5,781 bases of DNA, taken from IMG/VR virus record IMGVR_UViG_3300045988_010059, positions 1-5,781 of that record; one strand, 5' to 3'. The DNA is from a virus. The translations under genes were made by a program, and so were the position numbers. The notes beneath the pieces are model-generated. The model searched no databases. It had not been told where the DNA came from and saw only the letters and a list, made by a program, of their open reading frames with translations. This document shows, one piece after another, positions 1-5,781 of this stretch (the stretch's first letter is position 1; each line of letters begins with the position of its first letter).

Positions 1-55
1 CGGATGAAGAAACATTTGGCTATCAGGAAGCCTGGGCAGACTACCGGATGAAACC
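1..55. repeat. Terminal direct repeat, copy 1 (identical to 5727..5781); circular-genome assembly overlap
   Basis: cggatgaagaaacatttggctatcaggaagcctgggcagactaccggatgaaacc occurs at 1..55 and again, base for base, at 5727..5781. It lies inside one continuous reading frame. Confidence 0.9.
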
Positions 56-333: not shown

Positions 334-1188
334 ATGGATCCATTAACAATCATGTCAATGGTTGGCGCAGGAGCTAATGCGATAGGAAGCATTGCGGGAG
401 CGGCCAAAAACCTTGGAAGCATGTTTGGCGGTTGGGGTCAGACAGGAAACAGCCAGAGCCAAGGCGGCAGTGTAAGCCAAGGCGGCGGCCATTCCGAAAG
501 CGGAAGCCAATCAGGAACGAACATTGAACAGGTGCAAAAGTGGCTGGAAGGTGCATACCAATACCAAGCAGGAGAAGCACAAAGACAAAGCCAATTTAAC
601 ACCGGCTCCATGCTTAAGCAAATGGGCTACAATACCTTGAGCGCAATCGCACAGGGCATCTATAACCACATCGAAAACACAGCGGCAATGAATTTTAACA
701 GCACCGAAGCCATGAAAAACAGAGAATGGCAGGAAAGAATGAGCTCCACAGCCTATCAGAGAGCCGTAGAGGATATGAAAAAAGCAGGGCTTAATCCAAT
801 ACTGGCATTCGCAAACGGCGGCGCAAGCACACCGGGAGGAAGTGCGGCAACGATAAGCGGCGCAAGTATGGGACTTGCAAGCAGTAGTGCACTAGGCGTA
901 AGCAGAAGTGGAGGATTTGTGCCAAACGCATACAGCAGCAGCAGTTGGAGCAAATCAGACTGGTACAACGCTGCACAAAGCTGGCAGCAAATGCTAAGTC
1001 AAACGCACCTGACACCCTATGGAATGACAAAAGCGCTAACAGAAATTGGAAAAGGCACCGACAAGGTAACCGAAGAAGCAATTGAAAAAGCAGCGCCAAA
1101 GCAGGGAAGAAAGCAAGAATTCACAAAGCCGCAAAACAAAACGGGAGATTATGGAGAAAAAAGAGAGCCAGGTGATTATTTAAAGTGA
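334..1188 (+). CDS. VP2: Minor capsid / DNA pilot protein VP2 (284 aa)
   Basis: Has a Gly/Ala-rich hydrophobic N-terminus (MDPLTIMSMVGAGANAIGSIAGAAKNLGS). Contains the block STAYQRAVEDMKKAGLNPILAF, which matches the conserved core of gokushovirus VP2 proteins. Lies directly 3' of VP1, as in gokushoviruses. Stop TGA at 1186..1188. Confidence 0.85.
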   Translation: MDPLTIMSMVGAGANAIGSIAGAAKNLGSMFGGWGQTGNSQSQGGSVSQGGGHSESGSQSGTNIEQVQKWLEGAYQYQAGEAQRQSQFNTGSMLKQMGYNTLSAIAQGIYNHIENTAAMNFNSTEAMKNREWQERMSSTAYQRAVEDMKKAGLNPILAFANGGASTPGGSAATISGASMGLASSSALGVSRSGGFVPNAYSSSSWSKSDWYNAAQSWQQMLSQTHLTPYGMTKALTEIGKGTDKVTEEAIEKAAPKQGRKQEFTKPQNKTGDYGEKREPGDYLK

Positions 1189-2215: not shown

Positions 2216-2263
2216 GTGTCACCTAGCCCAGTACCTATCAAGTAAGGTACTGGGCTATTGGTG
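2216..2263 (+). terminator. Long perfect stem-loop after VP4: candidate intrinsic terminator and/or ssDNA origin structure
   Basis: tagcccagtacc (2224..2235) is the exact reverse complement of ggtactgggcta (2246..2257). T2236:A2245 adds a 13th pair. After a 2-nt bulge, cacc (2220..2223) can pair with ggtg (2260..2263). The stem is followed by the interrupted T-rich stretch ttggtgtttattc. Confidence 0.5.
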
Positions 2264-2270
2264 TTTATTC

Positions 2271-2314
2271 GCACGCGCACGCGCACGCGTAGACGCGCGC
2301 ACATGCGCACGCGT
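2271..2314. repeat. GC-rich alternating purine-pyrimidine tract containing (GCACGC)x3 and two ACGCGT palindromes
   Basis: Sequence is gcacgc gcacgc gcacgc gtagac gcgcgc acatgc gcacgc gt. Strict R/Y alternation holds over 2271..2291 and 2293..2315, broken only at G2292. The tract is embedded in an otherwise AT-rich non-coding region. Confidence 0.85.
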
Positions 2315-2354
2315 AATATTATTATATAACTTGTTGTAGACGTAGTAGTAGGGC

Positions 2355-2520
2355 ATGTGGAAAAGTTGAAAAGCTACTTTTTTTAACGTAGCATCGGAAA
2401 AAAGTAATAAAAAAACAGTGTTGAAAGAATTGTGAATAAATTGTTGAATTGTTGAAACACTCTGTTGTGATAAAGTTTAACAATGTGGAAATGTTGAAAA
2501 CTATGTGGAAAGTGTTGAAA
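2355..2520 (+). repeat. Iteron array: 3 copies of ATGTGGAAA-N(1-3)-GTTGAAA plus extra GTTGAA(A)/TTGTTGAA units; protein-binding sites of unknown specificity
   Basis: Composite units are at 2355..2372 (atgtggaaaagttgaaaa), 2483..2500 (atgtggaaatgttgaaaa) and 2503..2520 (atgtggaaagtgttgaaa). GTTGAA starts at 2365, 2420, 2443, 2451, 2493 and 2514. TTGTTGAA is tandemly repeated at 2441..2456. All copies share one orientation. Confidence 0.8.
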
Positions 2521-2543
2521 GCGCCTAACGGCGAAAGTTCCAA

Positions 2544-2575
2544 TTTGTACAAAATTGCTACGCAACCTTGTACAA
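2544..2575. promoter_or_regulatory. Pair of TTGTACAA palindromes (candidate operator sites) just upstream of the -35 box
   Basis: TTTGTACAAA at 2544..2553 is a perfect 10-bp palindrome and TTGTACAA at 2568..2575 a perfect 8-bp one. Their centres are 23 bp apart. Both are followed by AA(A)TTG. Confidence 0.5.
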
Positions 2576-2583
2576 ATTGAAAC

Positions 2584-2612
2584 TTGACAATTGTAAAGAG
2601 AAATGCTATAAT
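2584..2612 (+). promoter_or_regulatory. Consensus sigma70/sigmaA-type promoter with extended -10
   Basis: TTGACA (2584..2589), a 17-nt spacer, TATAAT (2607..2612), and TG at 2604..2605 giving TGnTATAAT. Lies 25 nt upstream of the ATG at 2638, at the end of the only long non-coding region. Confidence 0.7.
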
Positions 2613-2637: not shown

Positions 2638-2829
2638 ATGAAAAGCCACTACGAATACACCGAAAACAAAAAAGTAAAATGTTATCATTCAGATATTGAC
2701 GGGTCTATCTATTATCCTTATACCTACGACAAAAAATTGGGGTGCTGGACGAACCGAAGCGGCGAGCTATCCAGACAGAGAATCAACCAGCTAGAAAACG
2801 AAGATGAAAACAAAATAATGTGGATGTAA
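2638..2829 (+). CDS. Hypothetical protein, 63 aa (no recognisable family)
   Basis: First ORF after the consensus promoter. GAGAGG at 2624..2629 lies 8 nt before the ATG. Sequence is MKSHYEYTENKKVKCYHSDIDGSIYYPYTYDKKLGCWTNRSGELSRQRINQLENEDENKIMWM. No hydrophobic segment. Confidence 0.5.
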   Translation: MKSHYEYTENKKVKCYHSDIDGSIYYPYTYDKKLGCWTNRSGELSRQRINQLENEDENKIMWM

Positions 2830-2849
2830 AACAAAGGAGAATTTGCAGA

Positions 2850-3242
2850 ATGCTTAGAGTATACACAAGCGAGCAGAACAACGAGCAGGTCGGGCCACAC
2901 TTTAAAGTGAAAGAATTCGCCTGCAAAGACGGAAGCGCAATCACATTCATTGACGACTACATGGTGACAATTCTGGAACTGCTCAGAAAAGAACTGGGCA
3001 ATAAACCAATCATCATCACAAGCGGCTACAGAACACCAGCACACAACGCCAAAGTAGGAGGGGCAAAGTATAGCTATCACATGCGTGGCATGGCCGTAGA
3101 TATCCGCGTAAACGGAATATCTGCAAAAGAAGTGGCAAAAGCCCTTGACAAGATAGTAGGAAGCTGTGGTATAATCGTATACGAAAGTTGGGTACATTTC
3201 GATGTGCGCGACGGCAAAAAGTACAGAAAGGGGATGACATAA
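2850..3242 (+). CDS. Zinc peptidase, M15 family (Peptidase_M15_3 / YcbK-like cell-wall D,D- or L,D-peptidase), 130 aa; probable lysis enzyme
   Basis: Translation contains FKVKEFACKDG...PIIITSGYRTPAHNAKVGGAKYSYHMRGMAVDI...WVHFDVRDG. This is the SGYR-x4-N-x3-GG-x3-S-x-H-x2-G-x-A-x-D and W-x-H-x-D signature with H/D/H zinc ligands. ATG 2850 is preferred over the track's GTG 2820 because AAGGAG (2834..2839) lies 10 nt upstream. Stop TAA at 3240..3242. Confidence 0.85.
   Translation: MLRVYTSEQNNEQVGPHFKVKEFACKDGSAITFIDDYMVTILELLRKELGNKPIIITSGYRTPAHNAKVGGAKYSYHMRGMAVDIRVNGISAKEVAKALDKIVGSCGIIVYESWVHFDVRDGKKYRKGMT
3145..3175 (+). promoter_or_regulatory. Candidate internal promoter inside the 3' end of the peptidase gene
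   Basis: TTGACA (3145..3150), a 19-nt spacer, TATAAT (3170..3175), with TG at 3167..3168 (TGgTATAAT). Both hexamers are perfect, but the spacer is longer than the optimal 17. Confidence 0.4.
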
Positions 3243-3358
3243 TGGCATTGATTTCCATCAAGGACGTAAAGCAGGCAATCCACATCATGATGCAGATTTT
3301 GGAAAAGCTCGATGAGATTTACCATGCACTGCATGACGAAATCAAGAAGGAGGACTAA
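3242..3358 (+). CDS. Hypothetical small protein, 38 aa (below the ORF-track cutoff)
   Basis: ATG 3242 overlaps the peptidase stop (TAATG). AGGGG at 3229..3233 lies 8 nt upstream. Sequence is MALISIKDVKQAIHIMMQILEKLDEIYHALHDEIKKED, with stop TAA at 3356..3358. Predicted amphipathic helix, no transmembrane segment. Confidence 0.35.
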   Translation: MALISIKDVKQAIHIMMQILEKLDEIYHALHDEIKKED

Positions 3359-3363
3359 CCAAC

Positions 3364-3591
3364 ATGGGCCTACACAAGTCATGGAACGTAAGGGACCAGA
3401 CCAAAGAAGAGTTGCAAAACATTCTTGAAAAGAAATACAAGGAGATTGACGCAAACTTTAAACTGCTACGTAAAGTGAGCGATATTGAAACGGCAAAAAA
3501 GCTGGTAGATGAAATATGGCAGATGAAGGGCTTTGCGAACGCAATCGAACTTGAACTTATCAGAAGGGGGATTTACAATGGCACATCGTAA
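3364..3591 (+). CDS. Hypothetical protein, 75 aa (helical, charged; no recognisable family)
   Basis: GGAGG at 3349..3353 lies 10 nt before ATG 3364. Sequence is MGLHKSWNVRDQTKEELQNILEKKYKEIDANFKLLRKVSDIETAKKLVDEIWQMKGFANAIELELIRRGIYNGTS. The 3' end overlaps the next gene by 14 nt. Confidence 0.55.
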   Translation: MGLHKSWNVRDQTKEELQNILEKKYKEIDANFKLLRKVSDIETAKKLVDEIWQMKGFANAIELELIRRGIYNGTS

Positions 3592-3697
3592 GAAGATGAA
3601 CATGCGAAAGGACAAGCGCATGTTCAACGCGACCGCACGAAAAACCAAAAGTATCAACCTGAGCCAGAAGCCCCTGCGCGGTGGCATCCGGCTGTAA
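3578..3697 (+). CDS. Small basic DNA-binding/packaging protein (gokushovirus ORF8/VP8-like, functional analogue of phiX174 J), 39 aa
   Basis: Sequence is MAHRKKMNMRKDKRMFNATARKTKSINLSQKPLRGGIRL. It has an Arg/Lys-rich N-terminus, the KRxF-x-xTA block and the C-terminal RGGIRL, as in Chlamydia-phage ORF8 proteins that end in MRGGIRF. AGAAGGGGG at 3562..3570 precedes ATG 3578. Not in the ORF track because it is under 60 aa. Confidence 0.8.
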   Translation: MAHRKKMNMRKDKRMFNATARKTKSINLSQKPLRGGIRL

Positions 3698-3713
3698 AAA
3701 AAGGAGAAAAACA

Positions 3714-3953
3714 ATGGAACATCTGTACTATGGTATCTGGGACAACGTGGCAAAGTGCTATGCATGGGTCGGCGAAAGCAAAAACAACGCAACCTTTGCG
3801 CGCATGTGCAACGTGATGGCAAAGGATGAAAAAACCTTCCTGGGCCAGTCACCGGGTGACTACATCGGCTACAGGCTGGCCGCATTCAACGATGAAAGCG
3901 GCGAGTTCCACAACGACAAAGAAAAGGTGTGGGAGGGCAAGCCGCATGAATAA
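3714..3953 (+). CDS. Conserved gokushovirus small non-structural protein (VP5-like), 79 aa
   Basis: AAGGAG at 3701..3706 precedes ATG 3714; the track's GTG 3681 start lies inside the previous gene. Sequence is MEHLYYGIWDNVAKCYAWVGESKNNATFARMCNV...SPGDYIGYRLAAFNDESGEF. This fits my recollection of the Y-x-D-x2-A...A-x-R-x-F...P-x-DY-x-L...FD-x2-(S/T)G pattern of small proteins encoded between VP4 and VP3 in gokushoviruses. Confidence 0.6.
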   Translation: MEHLYYGIWDNVAKCYAWVGESKNNATFARMCNVMAKDEKTFLGQSPGDYIGYRLAAFNDESGEFHNDKEKVWEGKPHE

Positions 3954-4356
3954 ACGATATGAGGAGGGGCGCAAGCCCCTCTTTTCTGAACCGGGAAAAA
4001 ACGAAAGAAAACAGTACGTCTGGGCAAAGGATAAAGACGGCAAGGAATACTTGCAGGAAACCGAAAGCATCGATGTACAGGCAGAAATTGAAAGCTATGC
4101 AGACGAATGTGACATAAAAAACATTGTCAGGAAAGCAAGTTTCGACCCGGAATTCCTGAAAAGCCTGTCACAGGGTGCACTGTCCGAGGAAGAAACGCCT
4201 ATCATGGATATCACCGGATGGCCACAGAACGTACACGAATATCACCAGATGATGGCAACGGCACAGGTAAACGCCATGAAACTAGAAGAGCTGAAGAAAG
4301 CTCAGGAAAACGCACCGGAAAAGGTGCAGAAGGAGGAAGCAAATGAACAGAAATAA
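3946..4356 (+). CDS. VP3: Internal scaffolding protein VP3, 136 aa
   Basis: GGGAGGG at 3931..3937 lies 8 nt before ATG 3946. The acidic protein contains QAEIESYADECDIKNIVRKA, compare the conserved ..ECDIN.I... block of gokushovirus VP3. It lies immediately upstream of VP1 and overlaps it by 14 nt. The track's 3826 start would add 40 codons fully overlapping the previous gene with no SD. Confidence 0.75.
   Translation: MNKRYEEGRKPLFSEPGKNERKQYVWAKDKDGKEYLQETESIDVQAEIESYADECDIKNIVRKASFDPEFLKSLSQGALSEEETPIMDITGWPQNVHEYHQMMATAQVNAMKLEELKKAQENAPEKVQKEEANEQK
3961..3985 (+). terminator. GC-rich hairpin with GCAA tetraloop followed by TTTT, located inside the first 14 codons of VP3
   Basis: gaggggc (3964..3970) pairs perfectly with gcccctc (3975..3981). 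The loop is GCAA (3971..3974), followed by TTTT (3982..3985). It starts 8 nt after the stop of the VP5-like gene. Confidence 0.45.
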
Positions 4357-5781
4357 CGAACGGCATTTCCTTCAGATTCCGGAAATGCACGCAAGCCGAA
4401 CGCGATTCAATCGAGACCAGACGATTTTAACAACGTTTGATTCTGGAAAGCTCATCCCATTCTTTGTGGACGAAGTATTACCGGGCGATACCTTCCAGGT
4501 GGACACAACGGCAATTATCCGAATGAGCACACCGAAATATCCGGTAATGGACGATGCATTCATTGACTTTTACTATTTCTACACACCGAACCGAATTCTT
4601 TGGGACAGCTTCAAACACTTCATGGGTGAGGTGGAAGAAACGCCATGGATGCCTACAAAGACATACGCTGTGCCGCAAATCAAAATCAACGGCACGGACG
4701 CAAAGCCTGCACCGGACGAAAGGTCCATTCTGGATTATATGGGTGTACCGACGAAAATCAAAAAGCCTTTTACCATCAACGCATTGCCCATCCGGGCATA
4801 CGTCAAAATCTGGAATGAATTTTTTAGGGACGAAAACGTGGACAACGCGGCAGTTCTGAAAAGCGATGACGCAGACGTGACGTACAACTTCACGGAAGAA
4901 AAATCCGAAACACTGGAAAAAGACCTGCAAAACGCAGTCCTTGGCGGCAACCTGTTGCCGGTAAACAAGTACCATGACTACTTTACCAGCTGTTTACCTT
5001 ATCCACAGCGTGGGCCAGAAGTTGCGCTGCCGATGCAAGGTAATGCACCACTGGAAGCATACACGACAGACAAACTTACAGAAAAAGTCAAGTTGGAAGG
5101 TCAAAAAACACTTCTATGGCAAACAAACAGTGACAATGAAGGAAGCCTTCCAGAAACATTTGCAGGAGGATACAACAAAATTGGAACATCGTTTGGGGCA
5201 AAAATAAGCGGCGAAACCATCACAAAAAGATACTATCTGGGAACAGATCTGAGCGCCGTAACAGCCACAACTATCAACGACTTACGACAGGCCGTAGCAG
5301 TACAGCAGTATTACGAAGCACTATCAAGAGGTGGCAGCCGGTACCGCGAGCAGGTACAAGCACTGTGGGATGTGACCATCAGTGACAAAACCGTACAGAT
5401 TCCGGAATATCTGGGCGGTGGCAGATACCAAGTCAACGTCAATCAAATTATTCAGACCAGCGGCCAACAGAACGAAAACGACACACCCCTAGGCGAAACC
5501 GGTGCAGTATCCGTAACACCTATCAGAGAAAGCTCGTTCACCAAGAGCTTTGAAGAGCACGGCTTTGTCATCGGCGTTGCGTGCGTGCGACACAATCGGA
5601 GCTATCAGCAGGGCCTTGAACGCTTCTGGAGCAGAAAAGACCGTTTGGACTACTATGTACCACAGTTTGCCAACCTTGGCGAACAGCCGGTAAAAAAGAA
5701 AGAAATCATGCTCACCGGAAACGCAACGGATGAAGAAACATTTGGCTATCAGGAAGCCTGGGCAGACTACCGGATGAAACC
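4343..5781 (+). CDS. VP1: Major capsid protein VP1 (phiX174 F homologue), first ~479 codons; the ORF is open to the window end and continues at position 56 (full ORF 1,680 nt, 559 aa)
   Basis: GGAGG at 4332..4336 lies 6 nt before ATG 4343. Hand translation shows no stop through 5781. Recognisable blocks are MNRNNERHFLQIPEMHASRTRFNRDQTILTTFDSGKLIPFFVDEVLPGDTFQVDT..., ...KYHDYFTSCLPYPQRG..., ...TINDLRQAVAVQQYYEALSRGGSRYREQVQALWDV... and ...FGYQEAWADYRMKP. These are hallmark microvirus capsid blocks. Confidence 0.95.
   Translation, partial: MNRNNERHFLQIPEMHASRTRFNRDQTILTTFDSGKLIPFFVDEVLPGDTFQVDTTAIIRMSTPKYPVMDDAFIDFYYFYTPNRILWDSFKHFMGEVEETPWMPTKTYAVPQIKINGTDAKPAPDERSILDYMGVPTKIKKPFTINALPIRAYVKIWNEFFRDENVDNAAVLKSDDADVTYNFTEEKSETLEKDLQNAVLGGNLLPVNKYHDYFTSCLPYPQRGPEVALPMQGNAPLEAYTTDKLTEKVKLEGQKTLLWQTNSDNEGSLPETFAGGYNKIGTSFGAKISGETITKRYYLGTDLSAVTATTINDLRQAVAVQQYYEALSRGGSRYREQVQALWDVTISDKTVQIPEYLGGGRYQVNVNQIIQTSGQQNENDTPLGETGAVSVTPIRESSFTKSFEEHGFVIGVACVRHNRSYQQGLERFWSRKDRLDYYVPQFANLGEQPVKKKEIMLTGNATDEETFGYQEAWADYRMK
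5727..5781. repeat. Terminal direct repeat, copy 2 (identical to 1..55)
   Basis: Exact 55-nt identity with the window start. Confidence 0.9.

What the first reader, a model, noticed from the sequence alone, without database searches (positions are those of the whole stretch)
2850..3242. M15-family cell-wall peptidase in a microvirus, with no signal peptide and no visible holin
The ORF carries the complete M15_3-type signature: SGYRTPAHNAKVGG, SYHMRGMAVD and WVHFD, giving H/D/H zinc ligands. phiX174-like microviruses lyse through protein E, an MraY inhibitor. No lysis mechanism is established for gokushoviruses. A true muralytic enzyme implies a different, endolysin-type strategy. The protein starts MLRVYTSEQNNEQ with no hydrophobic leader. 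None of the ORFs I translated in the genome has a transmembrane-length hydrophobic stretch, apart from the Gly/Ala-rich N-terminus of VP2. How the enzyme reaches the peptidoglycan is therefore unexplained. I recall M15-like ORFs being noted sporadically in metagenomic microviruses, so presence alone may not be novel. The export and activation route is the open question.
Basis: partly seen in the sequence, partly recalled or inferred. Interest (0 to 1): 0.75.

Follow-up and report, generated by a model that had tools for sequence, protein, structure and literature searches.

The report
Known leaderless endolysin gene in gokushovirus
This small gut phage carries a borrowed cell-wall-cutting enzyme gene that was first reported in such phages in 2012; it is real and well conserved, and the only open puzzle is how the enzyme crosses the cell membrane without any visible helper protein.

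Summary
ORF 2850-3242 (+) encodes a 130-aa Peptidase_M15_3 protein (Pfam E=2.3e-22; PHROG 'endolysin' 3.8e-44). It has invariant R61/H77/D84/H116/D118, an AlphaFold model with the Hedgehog/DD-peptidase fold, and dN/dS of 0.05-0.15.

It is not new. The window is a 5,726-nt circular gokushovirus, 93% identical to GenBank KX513877, whose homologous CDS is already annotated 'peptidase M15'. Roux et al. 2012 reported M15_3 peptidases in human-gut gokushoviruses and proposed an endolysin role.

The 'no leader, no holin' part also holds and generalises. There is no signal, SAR, Tat or lipobox motif. No + strand ORF has a TM-grade segment, in the window or conserved across 82 relatives. The same scan finds TM proteins beside the homologous enzyme in three tailed phages.

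New context from this work:
- The gene sits first or second behind the phage's one consensus sigma-70 promoter, in a hypervariable accessory-gene hotspot.
- It has moved between gokushovirus backbones that differ strongly (VP1 about 41% identical, M15 63-70%).
- More distant relatives share the small-gene block but lack M15.

Best reading: an acquired cytoplasmic endolysin that augments an unknown, non-holin lysis trigger. Ordinary and already known; the export route remains open.

The parts
2850..3242 (+). M15 (Peptidase_M15_3 / M15A-like) zinc peptidoglycan peptidase CDS, 130 aa plus stop. Key codons: R61 at 3030-3032, H77 at 3078-3080, D84 at 3099-3101, H116 at 3195-3197, D118 at 3201-3203.
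   Evidence: Pfam and PHROG hits. Invariant residues. AlphaFold pLDDT 85.5. Foldseek hits to 1lbu, VanY and ShhN, and to viral M15 models at TM 0.83-0.86. dN/dS 0.05-0.15.
2834..2839 (+). Shine-Dalgarno AAGGAG, 10 nt before the M15 ATG.
2584..2612 (+). Perfect sigma-70-type promoter TTGACA-17-TATAAT with a TG extension. It is the only 12/12 match in the genome and is the presumed start of the unit orf63-M15-orf38-orf75-ORF8-VP5-VP3-VP1.
   Evidence: An equivalent promoter matching at least 11 of 12 positions lies in the VP4-to-M15 gap in 47 of 79 relatives, against 1 of 79 anywhere else on the + strand.
2535..2585 (.). 24-nt inverted repeat with two TTGTACAAA palindromes, abutting the -35 hexamer. 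It looks like an operator or an ssDNA hairpin.
   Evidence: DNA fold -15.2 kcal/mol, z = -5.3.
2638..2829 (+). orf63, a hydrophilic 63-aa ORF between the promoter and M15. It is a variable hotspot cargo gene, not a conserved partner of M15.
   Evidence: SD GAGGT. No Pfam, PHROG or NCBIfam hit. Found in only 3 of 82 genomes (window, L007, L028); at least 14 unrelated ORF families occupy this position. dN/dS 0.12-0.26.
3242..3358 (+). orf38, a conserved 38-aa acidic helical protein whose start overlaps the M15 stop (TAATG). It is a backbone gene, not specific to the M15 cassette.
   Evidence: Present in 83 of 84 loci, with dN/dS 0.02-0.07. It is also present in M15-less genomes L085-L088. No TM segment (19-aa mean 1.02).
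3364..3591 (+). orf75, a conserved 75-aa hydrophilic small protein downstream of M15.
2224..2257 (+). 13-bp perfect hairpin with a T-rich tail after VP4. It resembles a terminator and would close the preceding transcription unit.
   Evidence: Fold z = -7.4.
349..405 (+). VP2 (pilot protein) residues 6-24, IMSMVGAGANAIGSIAGAA. This is the most hydrophobic segment of any annotated protein and the only speculative in-genome candidate for a membrane lesion.
   Evidence: 19-aa mean 1.35. Gly/Ala-rich hydrophobic N-termini are general in 75 related VP2s, median 1.19. PHROG 'pilot protein for DNA ejection'.

Best explanation
The ORF is a functional, horizontally acquired zinc peptidoglycan peptidase of the M15A / Peptidase_M15_3 type. 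It is the same kind of small, leaderless, single-domain enzyme that tailed phages use as their endolysin.

Proposed mechanism:
1. The gene lies in an accessory-gene hotspot immediately behind the phage's one consensus sigma-70 promoter. It is therefore made together with the structural proteins and accumulates in the cytoplasm (inferred).
2. It has no signal or SAR sequence, and the genome encodes no holin or spanin. It can therefore reach the murein only after the cytoplasmic membrane is compromised by something else.
3. The most likely 'something else' is a still-unidentified lysis trigger encoded by the backbone, or a host-dependent one, that more distant M15-less relatives also rely on (inferred).
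4. M15 then cuts the peptide stems or cross-links and completes or accelerates wall breakdown (inferred).

What is shown: family, fold class, catalytic residues, purifying selection, absence of export signals and of TM partners, promoter position, and gene mobility. What is inferred: enzymatic activity, the role in lysis, and the release route.
For: Identity:
- Pfam 2.3e-22 and PHROG endolysin 3.8e-44.
- PDB 1lbu_A at 4.5e-6, or 1.6e-8 with a profile. The alignment places H77 and D84 on the chain's H and D in 'SRHMYGHAAD'.
- AlphaFold pLDDT 85.5.
- Foldseek PDB top families are the Zn DD-peptidase 1lbu, VanY and Sonic hedgehog N-domain. BFVD viral M15 peptidases match at TM 0.83-0.86.

Functional constraint:
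- dN/dS 0.05-0.15, like the core genes.
- R61, H77, D84, H116 and D118 are invariant.

Endolysin analogy:
- Homologues at 40-50% identity in Vibrio phage K373, Faecalibacterium phage Lelie and Vectrevirus AAPEc6 are also leaderless. Each has a TM protein (19-aa mean 2.5-2.8) one or two genes downstream, including an annotated holin and spanin.

No export device here:
-.

Co-expression with structural genes:
-.

Acquired and mobile:
- M15 is 63-70% identical between backbones whose VP1, VP4 and VP2 are about 41%, 35% and 28% identical.
- Against L003, M15 is 88% identical while VP1 is 57%.

Accessory status:
- The 5.2-5.3 kb genomes L085-L088 have orf38, ORF8, VP5 and VP3 but no M15 and no TM ORF.

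Precedent:
- A microvirus peptidoglycan hydrolase (Ebor Gp7) degrades peptidoglycan in vitro (PMC11980548).
- Roux 2012 made the endolysin proposal.
Against: - No activity data exist for this protein or its clade, and the host is unknown.
- Nothing in the sequence identifies the postulated membrane trigger, so the central step is an argument from absence.
- The M15-less genomes are only distant relatives (VP1 45-51% identical). Every genome I examined from the two backbones that carry M15 has the gene, so within those lineages it may be essential rather than accessory.
- The hydrophobicity scan would miss very short ORFs (under 25 aa), weakly hydrophobic membrane-active peptides and amphipathic ones.
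Confidence: 0.6

Rival explanations
1. The pilot protein VP2 moonlights as the membrane-lesion factor. Surplus VP2 would insert its Gly/Ala-rich N-terminal helix into the cytoplasmic membrane late in infection and let the cytoplasmic M15 enzyme through, so VP2 plus M15 would act as a two-part lysis system.
For: - VP2 residues 6-24 form the most hydrophobic segment of any protein in the genome (19-aa mean 1.35).
- Such N-termini, with small-xxx-small spacing, are general in 75 related VP2s.
- Pilot proteins of microviruses are membrane-inserting DNA conduits (general knowledge of phiX174 protein H; PHROG annotation).
Against: - The segment is below the usual TM threshold.
- It is equally present in M15-less genomes, so it shows no co-adaptation with M15.
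- There is no evidence that any pilot protein causes lysis.
Confidence: 0.12
2. A dedicated holin or amurin exists but was missed. It could be a very short or weakly hydrophobic ORF, an overprinted gene with a non-canonical start, or a minus-strand gene.
For: - Other M15-bearing microviruses do have small TM ORFs: Ebor Gp1 (45 aa), OR148996 5744-5878 directly after M15, PP511348 2607-2783, and MZ089789 5092-5199.
- Fourteen of 26 group-B relatives carry a hydrophobic-then-basic alternative-frame segment inside VP1.
Against: - In the window's own backbone the matching alternative frame is only about 28 codons from stop to stop (median). The window's 101-codon version is an outlier.
- Sixty of 82 genomes have no + strand segment with a 19-aa mean of 1.5 or more.
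- Minus-strand hydrophobic ORFs are everywhere, because the minus strand is T-rich (A 35.7% and T 18.4% on the + strand). They are therefore uninformative.
Confidence: 0.12
3. The enzyme serves entry rather than exit. It would be a virion-associated lysin that opens the wall for DNA delivery.
For: - M15A domains occur inside large tail or virion proteins of tailed phages: BFVD hits of 1020 and 1191 aa, and Gp5-OB-fold fusions.
- Ebor Gp7 was detected in virions, though only in trace amount.
Against: - It is a free 130-aa protein with no capsid-binding extension.
- Its closest non-microvirus relatives are stand-alone endolysins inside lysis cassettes.
- The T=1 capsid has little spare room, and related genomes infect without it.
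Confidence: 0.08
4. The enzyme never leaves the cytoplasm. It would hydrolyse peptidoglycan precursors there (UDP-MurNAc-pentapeptide, lipid II or D-Ala-D-Ala), starving wall synthesis so that growing cells lyse. This would be an enzymatic counterpart of the phiX174 E, Qbeta A2 and LysM strategy.
For: - It is leaderless with no holin.
- Clan relatives VanX and VanY act on precursors (general knowledge). VanY is among the fold hits.
- It would fit the small-phage habit of attacking wall synthesis.
Against: - All active-site and substrate-binding positions are shared with tailed-phage endolysins that do work with holins.
- Sequence affinity is to the M15A and MepK-like wall enzymes, not to VanX.
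- There is no sign of neofunctionalisation.
Confidence: 0.06

Closest known systems
M15_3 peptidase genes of human-gut Gokushovirinae and Alpavirinae (Roux et al. 2012, PLoS One, PMC3394797); GenBank KX513877.1 CDS ARQ16046.1 'peptidase M15'
   Same: - Same gene in the same kind of virus. The genome is 93% identical over 95% of its length and the protein 93.8% identical.
- Same Pfam family, the same horizontal-transfer argument and the same proposed endolysin role.
   Different: Nothing material. This work adds the promoter and hotspot context, the transfer between backbones, and a systematic negative search for a holin.
Stand-alone M15/M15A endolysins of tailed phages (e.g. Vectrevirus AAPEc6 gp46, Vibrio phage K373 VPHK373_0026, Faecalibacterium phage Lelie orf35)
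   Same: - 40-50% identity, the same ~115-137 aa single domain, also leaderless, and identical catalytic residues.
   Different: Those genes sit in lysis cassettes with TM holins and spanins one or two genes away. The microvirus copy has none.
Ebor (Tainavirinae microvirus) Gp7 peptidoglycan hydrolase with Gp1 membrane protein (mBio 2025, PMC11980548)
   Same: A microvirus with an acquired muralytic enzyme. Activity on peptidoglycan has been shown experimentally.
   Different: - A different microvirus subfamily and host (Rhodobacter).
- Gp7 was matched to a different template (6SSC) and is called a lysozyme in that paper's methods.
- Ebor also encodes a predicted 45-aa membrane protein, which this genome lacks.
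phiX174 protein E and other single-gene lysis proteins (amurins)
   Same: They also belong to small phages with no holin-endolysin cassette.
   Different: E, L and LysM are small membrane proteins with no enzymatic activity that block or disturb wall synthesis. This protein is a soluble enzyme domain, and no E-like TM ORF exists here.
E. coli MepK (YcbK) L,D-endopeptidase and Streptomyces albus G Zn D-Ala-D-Ala carboxypeptidase (PDB 1LBU)
   Same: Same clan and fold, and the same H...D...H zinc site.
   Different: - Those are cellular, exported enzymes.
- The NCBIfam MepK score is 52.7 bits against a cut-off of 185, so this is not an equivalog.
- 1LBU has an extra N-terminal domain.

Membership tests
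Peptidase M15 (Pfam PF08291 Peptidase_M15_3; MEROPS M15A-like; clan MD) | Sequence matches the family model above the curated threshold. | tested here: met
   79.6 bits against a cut-off of 23.2, E=2.3e-22, model 1-108/108.
Peptidase M15 (Pfam PF08291 Peptidase_M15_3; MEROPS M15A-like; clan MD) | Zinc triad H-x6-D ... H, plus a conserved substrate-binding Arg. | tested here: met
   H77, D84, H116 and R61 are invariant in 43 + 6 sequences. H77 and D84 align to the H and D of the 1lbu chain. The H116 equivalence is inferred from the motif and the fold alignment.
Peptidase M15 (Pfam PF08291 Peptidase_M15_3; MEROPS M15A-like; clan MD) | Hedgehog/DD-peptidase (LAS) fold. | tested here: met
   AlphaFold pLDDT 85.5, pTM 0.81. 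Foldseek PDB top hits are 1lbu (probability 1.0, TM 0.54), VanY and ShhN, with modest E-values. BFVD M15 models match at TM 0.83-0.86, E about 1e-13.
Peptidase M15 (Pfam PF08291 Peptidase_M15_3; MEROPS M15A-like; clan MD) | Zn-dependent hydrolysis of a peptidoglycan peptide bond. | not testable with these tools
   Needs purified protein, a zymogram and muropeptide analysis.
Canonical holin-endolysin(-spanin) lysis cassette | A muralytic enzyme gene. | tested here: met
Canonical holin-endolysin(-spanin) lysis cassette | A small protein with at least one TM helix (the holin) encoded in the phage. | tested here: not met
   No + strand segment with a 19-aa mean of 1.4 or more and a usable start. 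None is conserved in 82 relatives. The same scan finds holins next to the tailed-phage homologues.
Canonical holin-endolysin(-spanin) lysis cassette | A spanin: a lipoprotein with a lipobox and/or a type-II membrane protein. | tested here: not met
   No lipobox preceded by a signal sequence in any + strand ORF.
Secreted or SAR endolysins | An N-terminal signal peptide, signal-anchor-release domain or Tat motif. | tested here: not met
   The N-terminus MLRVYTSEQNNEQVGPHF is hydrophilic. The protein's maximum 19-aa mean is 0.93, and that is internal. No RR motif. The N-termini of 43 homologues are equally hydrophilic.
MepK (NCBIfam NF053624 equivalog) | Score above the equivalog cut-off. | tested here: not met
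   52.7 bits against 185. It is a homologue, not an equivalog.
Single-gene lysis proteins / amurins (phiX174 E type) | A small non-enzymatic membrane protein, often overprinted on another gene. | tested here: not met
   No TM ORF in any + frame. The alternative-frame ORF inside VP1 is not conserved in this backbone.
Gokushovirinae genome | VP1, VP2, VP3 (Chlamy_scaf), VP4 (Rep), VP5 (Phage_ORF5) and a small basic ORF8-like protein on a circle of about 4.5-6 kb. | tested here: met

The most novel reading that the evidence does not exclude
A soluble, leaderless endolysin works in a phage that encodes no membrane protein at all. This would mean one of two things:
- A structural protein, the pilot VP2 N-terminal Gly/Ala helix, doubles as the membrane-permeabilising partner.
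- The enzyme kills from inside by destroying cytoplasmic peptidoglycan precursors.

Either would be a lysis strategy not described for any phage, and would give gokushoviruses their first defined lysis mechanism.
Probability: 0.15. Interest if true: 0.75.

Novelty: already known. Interest (0 to 1): 0.28.

Why it matters
How gokushoviruses, among the commonest phages of the human gut, lyse their hosts is still unknown. [quoted passage not shown] General reviews still state that ssDNA phages use non-enzymatic single-gene lysis.

This clade has more than 1,000 homologous proteins, most on 5.5-6 kb contigs. It offers a clean test case: a conserved endolysin with no holin, and more distant relatives that lack it. 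The existence of the gene is not news. The value lies only in using it as a handle on the export and trigger question, and possibly as a small leaderless lysin for enzybiotic work.

Tried and rejected
1. Minus-strand hydrophobic ORFs, for example 2383-2688 (101 aa). Rejected: every minus frame looks hydrophobic because the minus strand is T-rich.
2. orf38, translationally coupled to M15, as a cassette partner. Rejected: it is also present in M15-less genomes and has no TM segment.
3. orf63 as a chaperone-like partner, by analogy with Ms6 Gp1-LysA (recalled from memory). Rejected as a general partner: it occurs in only 3 of 82 genomes, at least 14 unrelated ORF families occupy that slot, and many genomes have the promoter 40-100 nt from M15 with no intervening ORF.
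4. The invariant basic C-terminal tail KKYRKG as a membrane-active extension. Rejected: tailed-phage homologues end at the same position with a similar short basic tail.
5. An overprinted E-like ORF in VP1 (window 4554-4859, 101 aa). Rejected: the median stop-to-stop length in this backbone is 28 codons. The group-B hydrophobic alternative-frame segment has no conserved start or length.
6. Host identification through prophages. Only one weak hit turned up in 185,579 species genomes: a 6-kb contig in an Eggerthellaceae metagenome-assembled genome. The longer contigs are concatemers.
7. L082, which joins the phage inside VP4 to AT-rich DNA. That DNA encodes a DUF11 and thioester-domain surface protein and a truncated putative response regulator (the latter judged by eye from its N-terminus; no Pfam hit). 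This is probably an assembly chimera and at best a faint Firmicutes hint.
8. Rfam and tRNA scans of the window. Nothing above threshold; hairpins hit miRNA models only.
9. Placing the enzyme by N-terminal architecture with the Faecalibacterium phage type. Suggestive, but Proteus, Achromobacter and Aeromonas phage homologues also cover the N-terminus, so it does not decide the host.

Full report
**Observation.** The ORF is exactly as described. ATG is at 2850, TAA at 3240-3242, and the product is 130 aa starting MLRVYTSEQNNEQ. AAGGAG lies 10 nt upstream. The three quoted motifs are present.
- Pfam gives Peptidase_M15_3 (PF08291) at E=2.3e-22, 79.6 bits against a cut-off of 23.2, over the whole model. 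Peptidase_M15_2/DUF882 is a second hit.
- PHROGs gives family 894 'endolysin' at 3.8e-44.
- This is far beyond chance.

**Genome.** The window is a complete circular gokushovirus.
- Its first and last 55 nt are identical. This is an assembly overlap, so the genome is 5,726 nt.
- Gene order on the + strand:
  - VP2, 334-1188
  - VP4/Rep, 1185-2207
  - a 430-nt non-coding stretch
  - orf63, 2638-2829
  - M15, 2850-3242
  - orf38, 3242-3358
  - orf75, 3364-3591
  - an ORF8-like basic protein, 3578-3697
  - VP5, 3681-3953
  - VP3 scaffold, ending at 4356
  - VP1, from 4343 across the junction to 296

- It is 93% identical over 95% of its length to GenBank KX513877.1 (Human gut gokushovirus SH-CHD14, also 5,726 nt). 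The homologous CDS there is already annotated 'peptidase M15', and the protein is 93.8% identical.

**What the protein is.**
- An alignment of 43 microvirus homologues shows 40 invariant columns, among them SGYRTP (58-63), H77, D84, H116, D118 and R120. The same catalytic positions are invariant when three tailed-phage homologues are added.
- The only solved structure found by sequence is the Streptomyces albus G zinc D-Ala-D-Ala carboxypeptidase 1LBU (E=4.5e-6, or 1.6e-8 with a profile). H77 and D84 fall on the H and D of its 'SRHMYGHAAD' segment.
- AlphaFold2 gives pLDDT 85.5 and pTM 0.81.
- Foldseek against the PDB ranks 1LBU first (probability 1.0), then VanY and the Sonic hedgehog N-domain. 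Together these define the Hedgehog/DD-peptidase fold, although the E-values are modest.
- Against predicted viral structures it matches M15/M15A peptidases at TM 0.83-0.86, including several from microviruses.
- NCBIfam's MepK equivalog model scores 52.7 bits against a cut-off of 185, so it is a relative of MepK, not MepK.
- dN/dS against ten relatives is 0.05-0.15, the same range as VP1, VP2 and VP4.
- The gene is therefore a constrained, presumably active zinc peptidoglycan peptidase. The bond it cleaves cannot be told from sequence.

**Distribution and evolution.**
- The protein has 1,192 homologues at E≤1e-5. The best 120 are 67-97% identical, and most sit on 5.5-6 kb contigs. IMG/VR holds 134 loci.
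- Mapping all window proteins onto 82 genomes shows two backbones that carry the gene:
  - Group A, which includes the window: VP1 about 75% and VP4 about 82% identical; order M15-orf38-orf75-ORF8-VP5.
  - Group B: VP1 about 41%, VP4 about 35%, VP2 about 28% identical; order M15-(orf75)-ORF8-orf38-VP5'.
- M15 is still 63-70% identical between the two groups. Against L003, M15 is 88% identical while VP1 is 57% and VP2 36%.
- The gene has therefore moved between gokushovirus lineages. Kirchberger et al. 2022 showed the same for another pair of microviruses.
- A third set of genomes (MG945157, KT264799, MG945199, MG945423) is 5.2-5.3 kb, with VP1 45-51% identical. These share orf38 (66-71%), ORF8, VP5 and VP3 but have no M15.

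**Export.** I checked each known route.
- **Signal, SAR or Tat.** None. The N-terminus is hydrophilic in all 43 homologues. The protein's maximum 19-residue Kyte-Doolittle mean is 0.93, and that is internal. There is no RR motif.
- **Holin.**
  - The + strand is A-rich and T-poor (35.7% and 18.4%).
  - Only one stop-to-stop segment in any + frame reaches a mean of 1.4, at 2678-2734, and it has no adequate start.
  - Across 82 relatives, 60 have no segment of 1.5 or more. The remainder are VP2 N-termini or alternative frames of conserved genes.
- **Spanin.** No lipobox behind a signal sequence.
- **Positive control.** The same scan finds TM proteins with means of 2.5-2.8 one or two genes downstream of the homologous enzyme in Vibrio phage K373, Faecalibacterium phage Lelie and Vectrevirus AAPEc6. 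In AAPEc6 a holin and a spanin are annotated.
- **Other M15-bearing microvirus lineages do have small TM ORFs:**
  - Ebor Gp1.
  - A 44-aa CDS directly after M15 in OR148996.
  - A 58-aa CDS in PP511348.
  - An unannotated 35-aa ORF between Rep and the peptidase in MZ089789.
  - Those genomes are T-rich, so the background of such ORFs is high.
- The holin-less state is therefore real and specific to this clade. It is not an artefact of the method.
- The M15-less relatives also have no TM ORF.

**Expression context.**
- The only 12/12 sigma-70 match in the genome, TTGACA-17-TATAAT with a TG extension, lies at 2584-2612, 26 nt before orf63.
- Terminator-like hairpins on the + strand follow VP4 (2224-2257) and VP1 (307-326).
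- In 47 of 79 relatives a promoter matching at least 11 of 12 positions lies in the gap between VP4 and M15. Only 1 of 79 has one anywhere else on the + strand.
- That promoter sits either 40-100 nt upstream of M15 or about 225-290 nt upstream with one small ORF in between.
- The small ORF is hypervariable, with at least 14 unrelated families in 82 genomes. Even KX513877 has a different one from the window.
- M15-less genomes have promoter-like sites and unrelated small ORFs at the same place.
- M15 is thus one cargo of an accessory-gene hotspot directly behind the main promoter, and is probably co-transcribed with the structural genes.

**Host.**
- No prophage copy was found. There is one weak hit in 185,579 species genomes, and the longer contigs are concatemers.
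- Consensus sigma-70 promoters, plus Shine-Dalgarno motifs before 9 of 10 genes, argue against a Bacteroidota-type host. They fit Firmicutes or Proteobacteria.
- Roux et al. 2012 linked four of five gokushovirus peptidases to Faecalibacterium homologues. The N-terminal extension is shared with the Faecalibacterium phage Lelie enzyme, but also with Proteobacteria phage enzymes.
- One contig (L082) joins the phage, inside VP4, to AT-rich DNA encoding a DUF11 and thioester-domain surface protein. It is probably a chimera.
- The host remains unknown.

**Mechanism.**
- The best-supported account is an acquired, cytoplasmic endolysin that depends on a non-holin membrane lesion.
- Relatives with the same small-gene block lack both M15 and any TM protein. 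The simplest reading is that the backbone has its own, still-unknown lysis trigger and that M15 augments it.
- The rivals, each rated low, are:
  - VP2's N-terminal Gly/Ala helix as the lesion.
  - A missed small or overprinted membrane protein.
  - A virion-associated entry role.
  - Cytoplasmic hydrolysis of peptidoglycan precursors.
- None can be excluded by computation.

**Novelty.**
- The gene, its family, its horizontal origin and its proposed role were published in 2012 for human-gut gokushoviruses. They are repeated in later surveys.
- A microvirus peptidoglycan hydrolase has been verified biochemically.
- A near-identical genome carries the annotation.
- In the papers I read, the missing holin is not discussed for this clade. 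That question remains open and is now better bounded.

**Verdict.** Interest is low to moderate and rests only on the unresolved export and trigger question.

Noticed in passing
window 1-55 and 5727-5781: An exact 55-nt terminal direct repeat, the assembly overlap of a circular genome. The true length is 5,726 nt, and VP1 reads 4343-5781 then 56-296.
   Followed up: yes
window 2584-2612, and the VP4-to-M15 gap of 79 related loci: A perfect TTGACA-17-TATAAT promoter with a TG extension. Promoters matching at least 11 of 12 positions occur in this gap in 47 of 79 relatives, against 1 of 79 elsewhere on the + strand. This suggests one dominant promoter per genome and a host with a canonical sigma-70/sigma-A.
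   Followed up: yes
window 2535-2585: A 24-nt inverted repeat carrying two TTGTACAAA palindromes and abutting the -35 hexamer. The DNA hairpin folds at -15.2 kcal/mol, z = -5.3. It could be an operator or an ssDNA structural element.
   Followed up: partly
window 2270-2315: An alternating purine/pyrimidine (CGCACG)n tract of about 7 units just after the VP4 terminator hairpin. It is partly palindromic, and its fold is no better than shuffled sequence. Function unknown.
   Followed up: partly
window 2355-2522; also L017, L026, L082, L085 and L088 upstream regions: Three to five copies of ATGTGGAAA(N)GTTGAAA. The same words recur in relatives, where they are read in different frames (…VENVETVEN…, …VENLLKLLK…). 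A neighbouring conserved stretch (GGCGCAAAAGCGCC, read as 'GAKAPF' or 'SAKALS') is likewise read in two frames. This looks like a conserved DNA-level element, perhaps an origin or a binding site, rather than a protein.
   Followed up: partly
window 2638-2829, and the equivalent slot in 82 loci: The position between the promoter and M15 is a hotspot holding at least 14 unrelated families of small hydrophilic ORFs. The 93%-identical KX513877 has a different one from the window.
   Followed up: yes
window 3242-3358: orf38 (MALISIKDVKQAIHIMMQILEKLDEIYHALHDEIKKED) is unannotated in GenBank relatives. It is nevertheless among the most conserved genes of the lineage: dN/dS 0.02-0.07, and 66-71% identical even in genomes whose VP1 is 45% identical. 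Function unknown.
   Followed up: partly
L008, L010, L016, L017 and others (group B), about 209 nt into VP1: Fourteen of 26 group-B genomes have an alternative-frame segment LLHG[HY]LFLLCSVPSAVGTLGEH followed by a very basic stretch (RRKRYKLLGRKNR…). This hydrophobic-then-basic layout recalls phiX174 E. There is no conserved start, the length varies from 26 to 92 codons, and the segment is absent from the window's backbone.
   Followed up: partly
L082 1-6220: A 15.9-kb ENA contig joins 1.6 copies of a related microvirus, inside VP4, to AT-rich DNA. That DNA encodes a 1,569-aa DUF11 and thioester-domain surface protein and a truncated putative response regulator (identified by eye from its N-terminus; no Pfam hit). 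It is probably an assembly chimera, and possibly a faint Firmicutes host hint.
   Followed up: partly
OR148996.1 5744-5878; PP511348.1 2607-2783; MZ089789.1 5092-5199: Other M15-bearing microvirus lineages carry small ORFs with a strong TM segment (19-aa means 2.3-2.8). In OR148996 and MZ089789 these lie next to the peptidase; in PP511348 the ORF lies about 1.4 kb upstream. They are candidate holins that appear not to have been discussed.
   Followed up: partly
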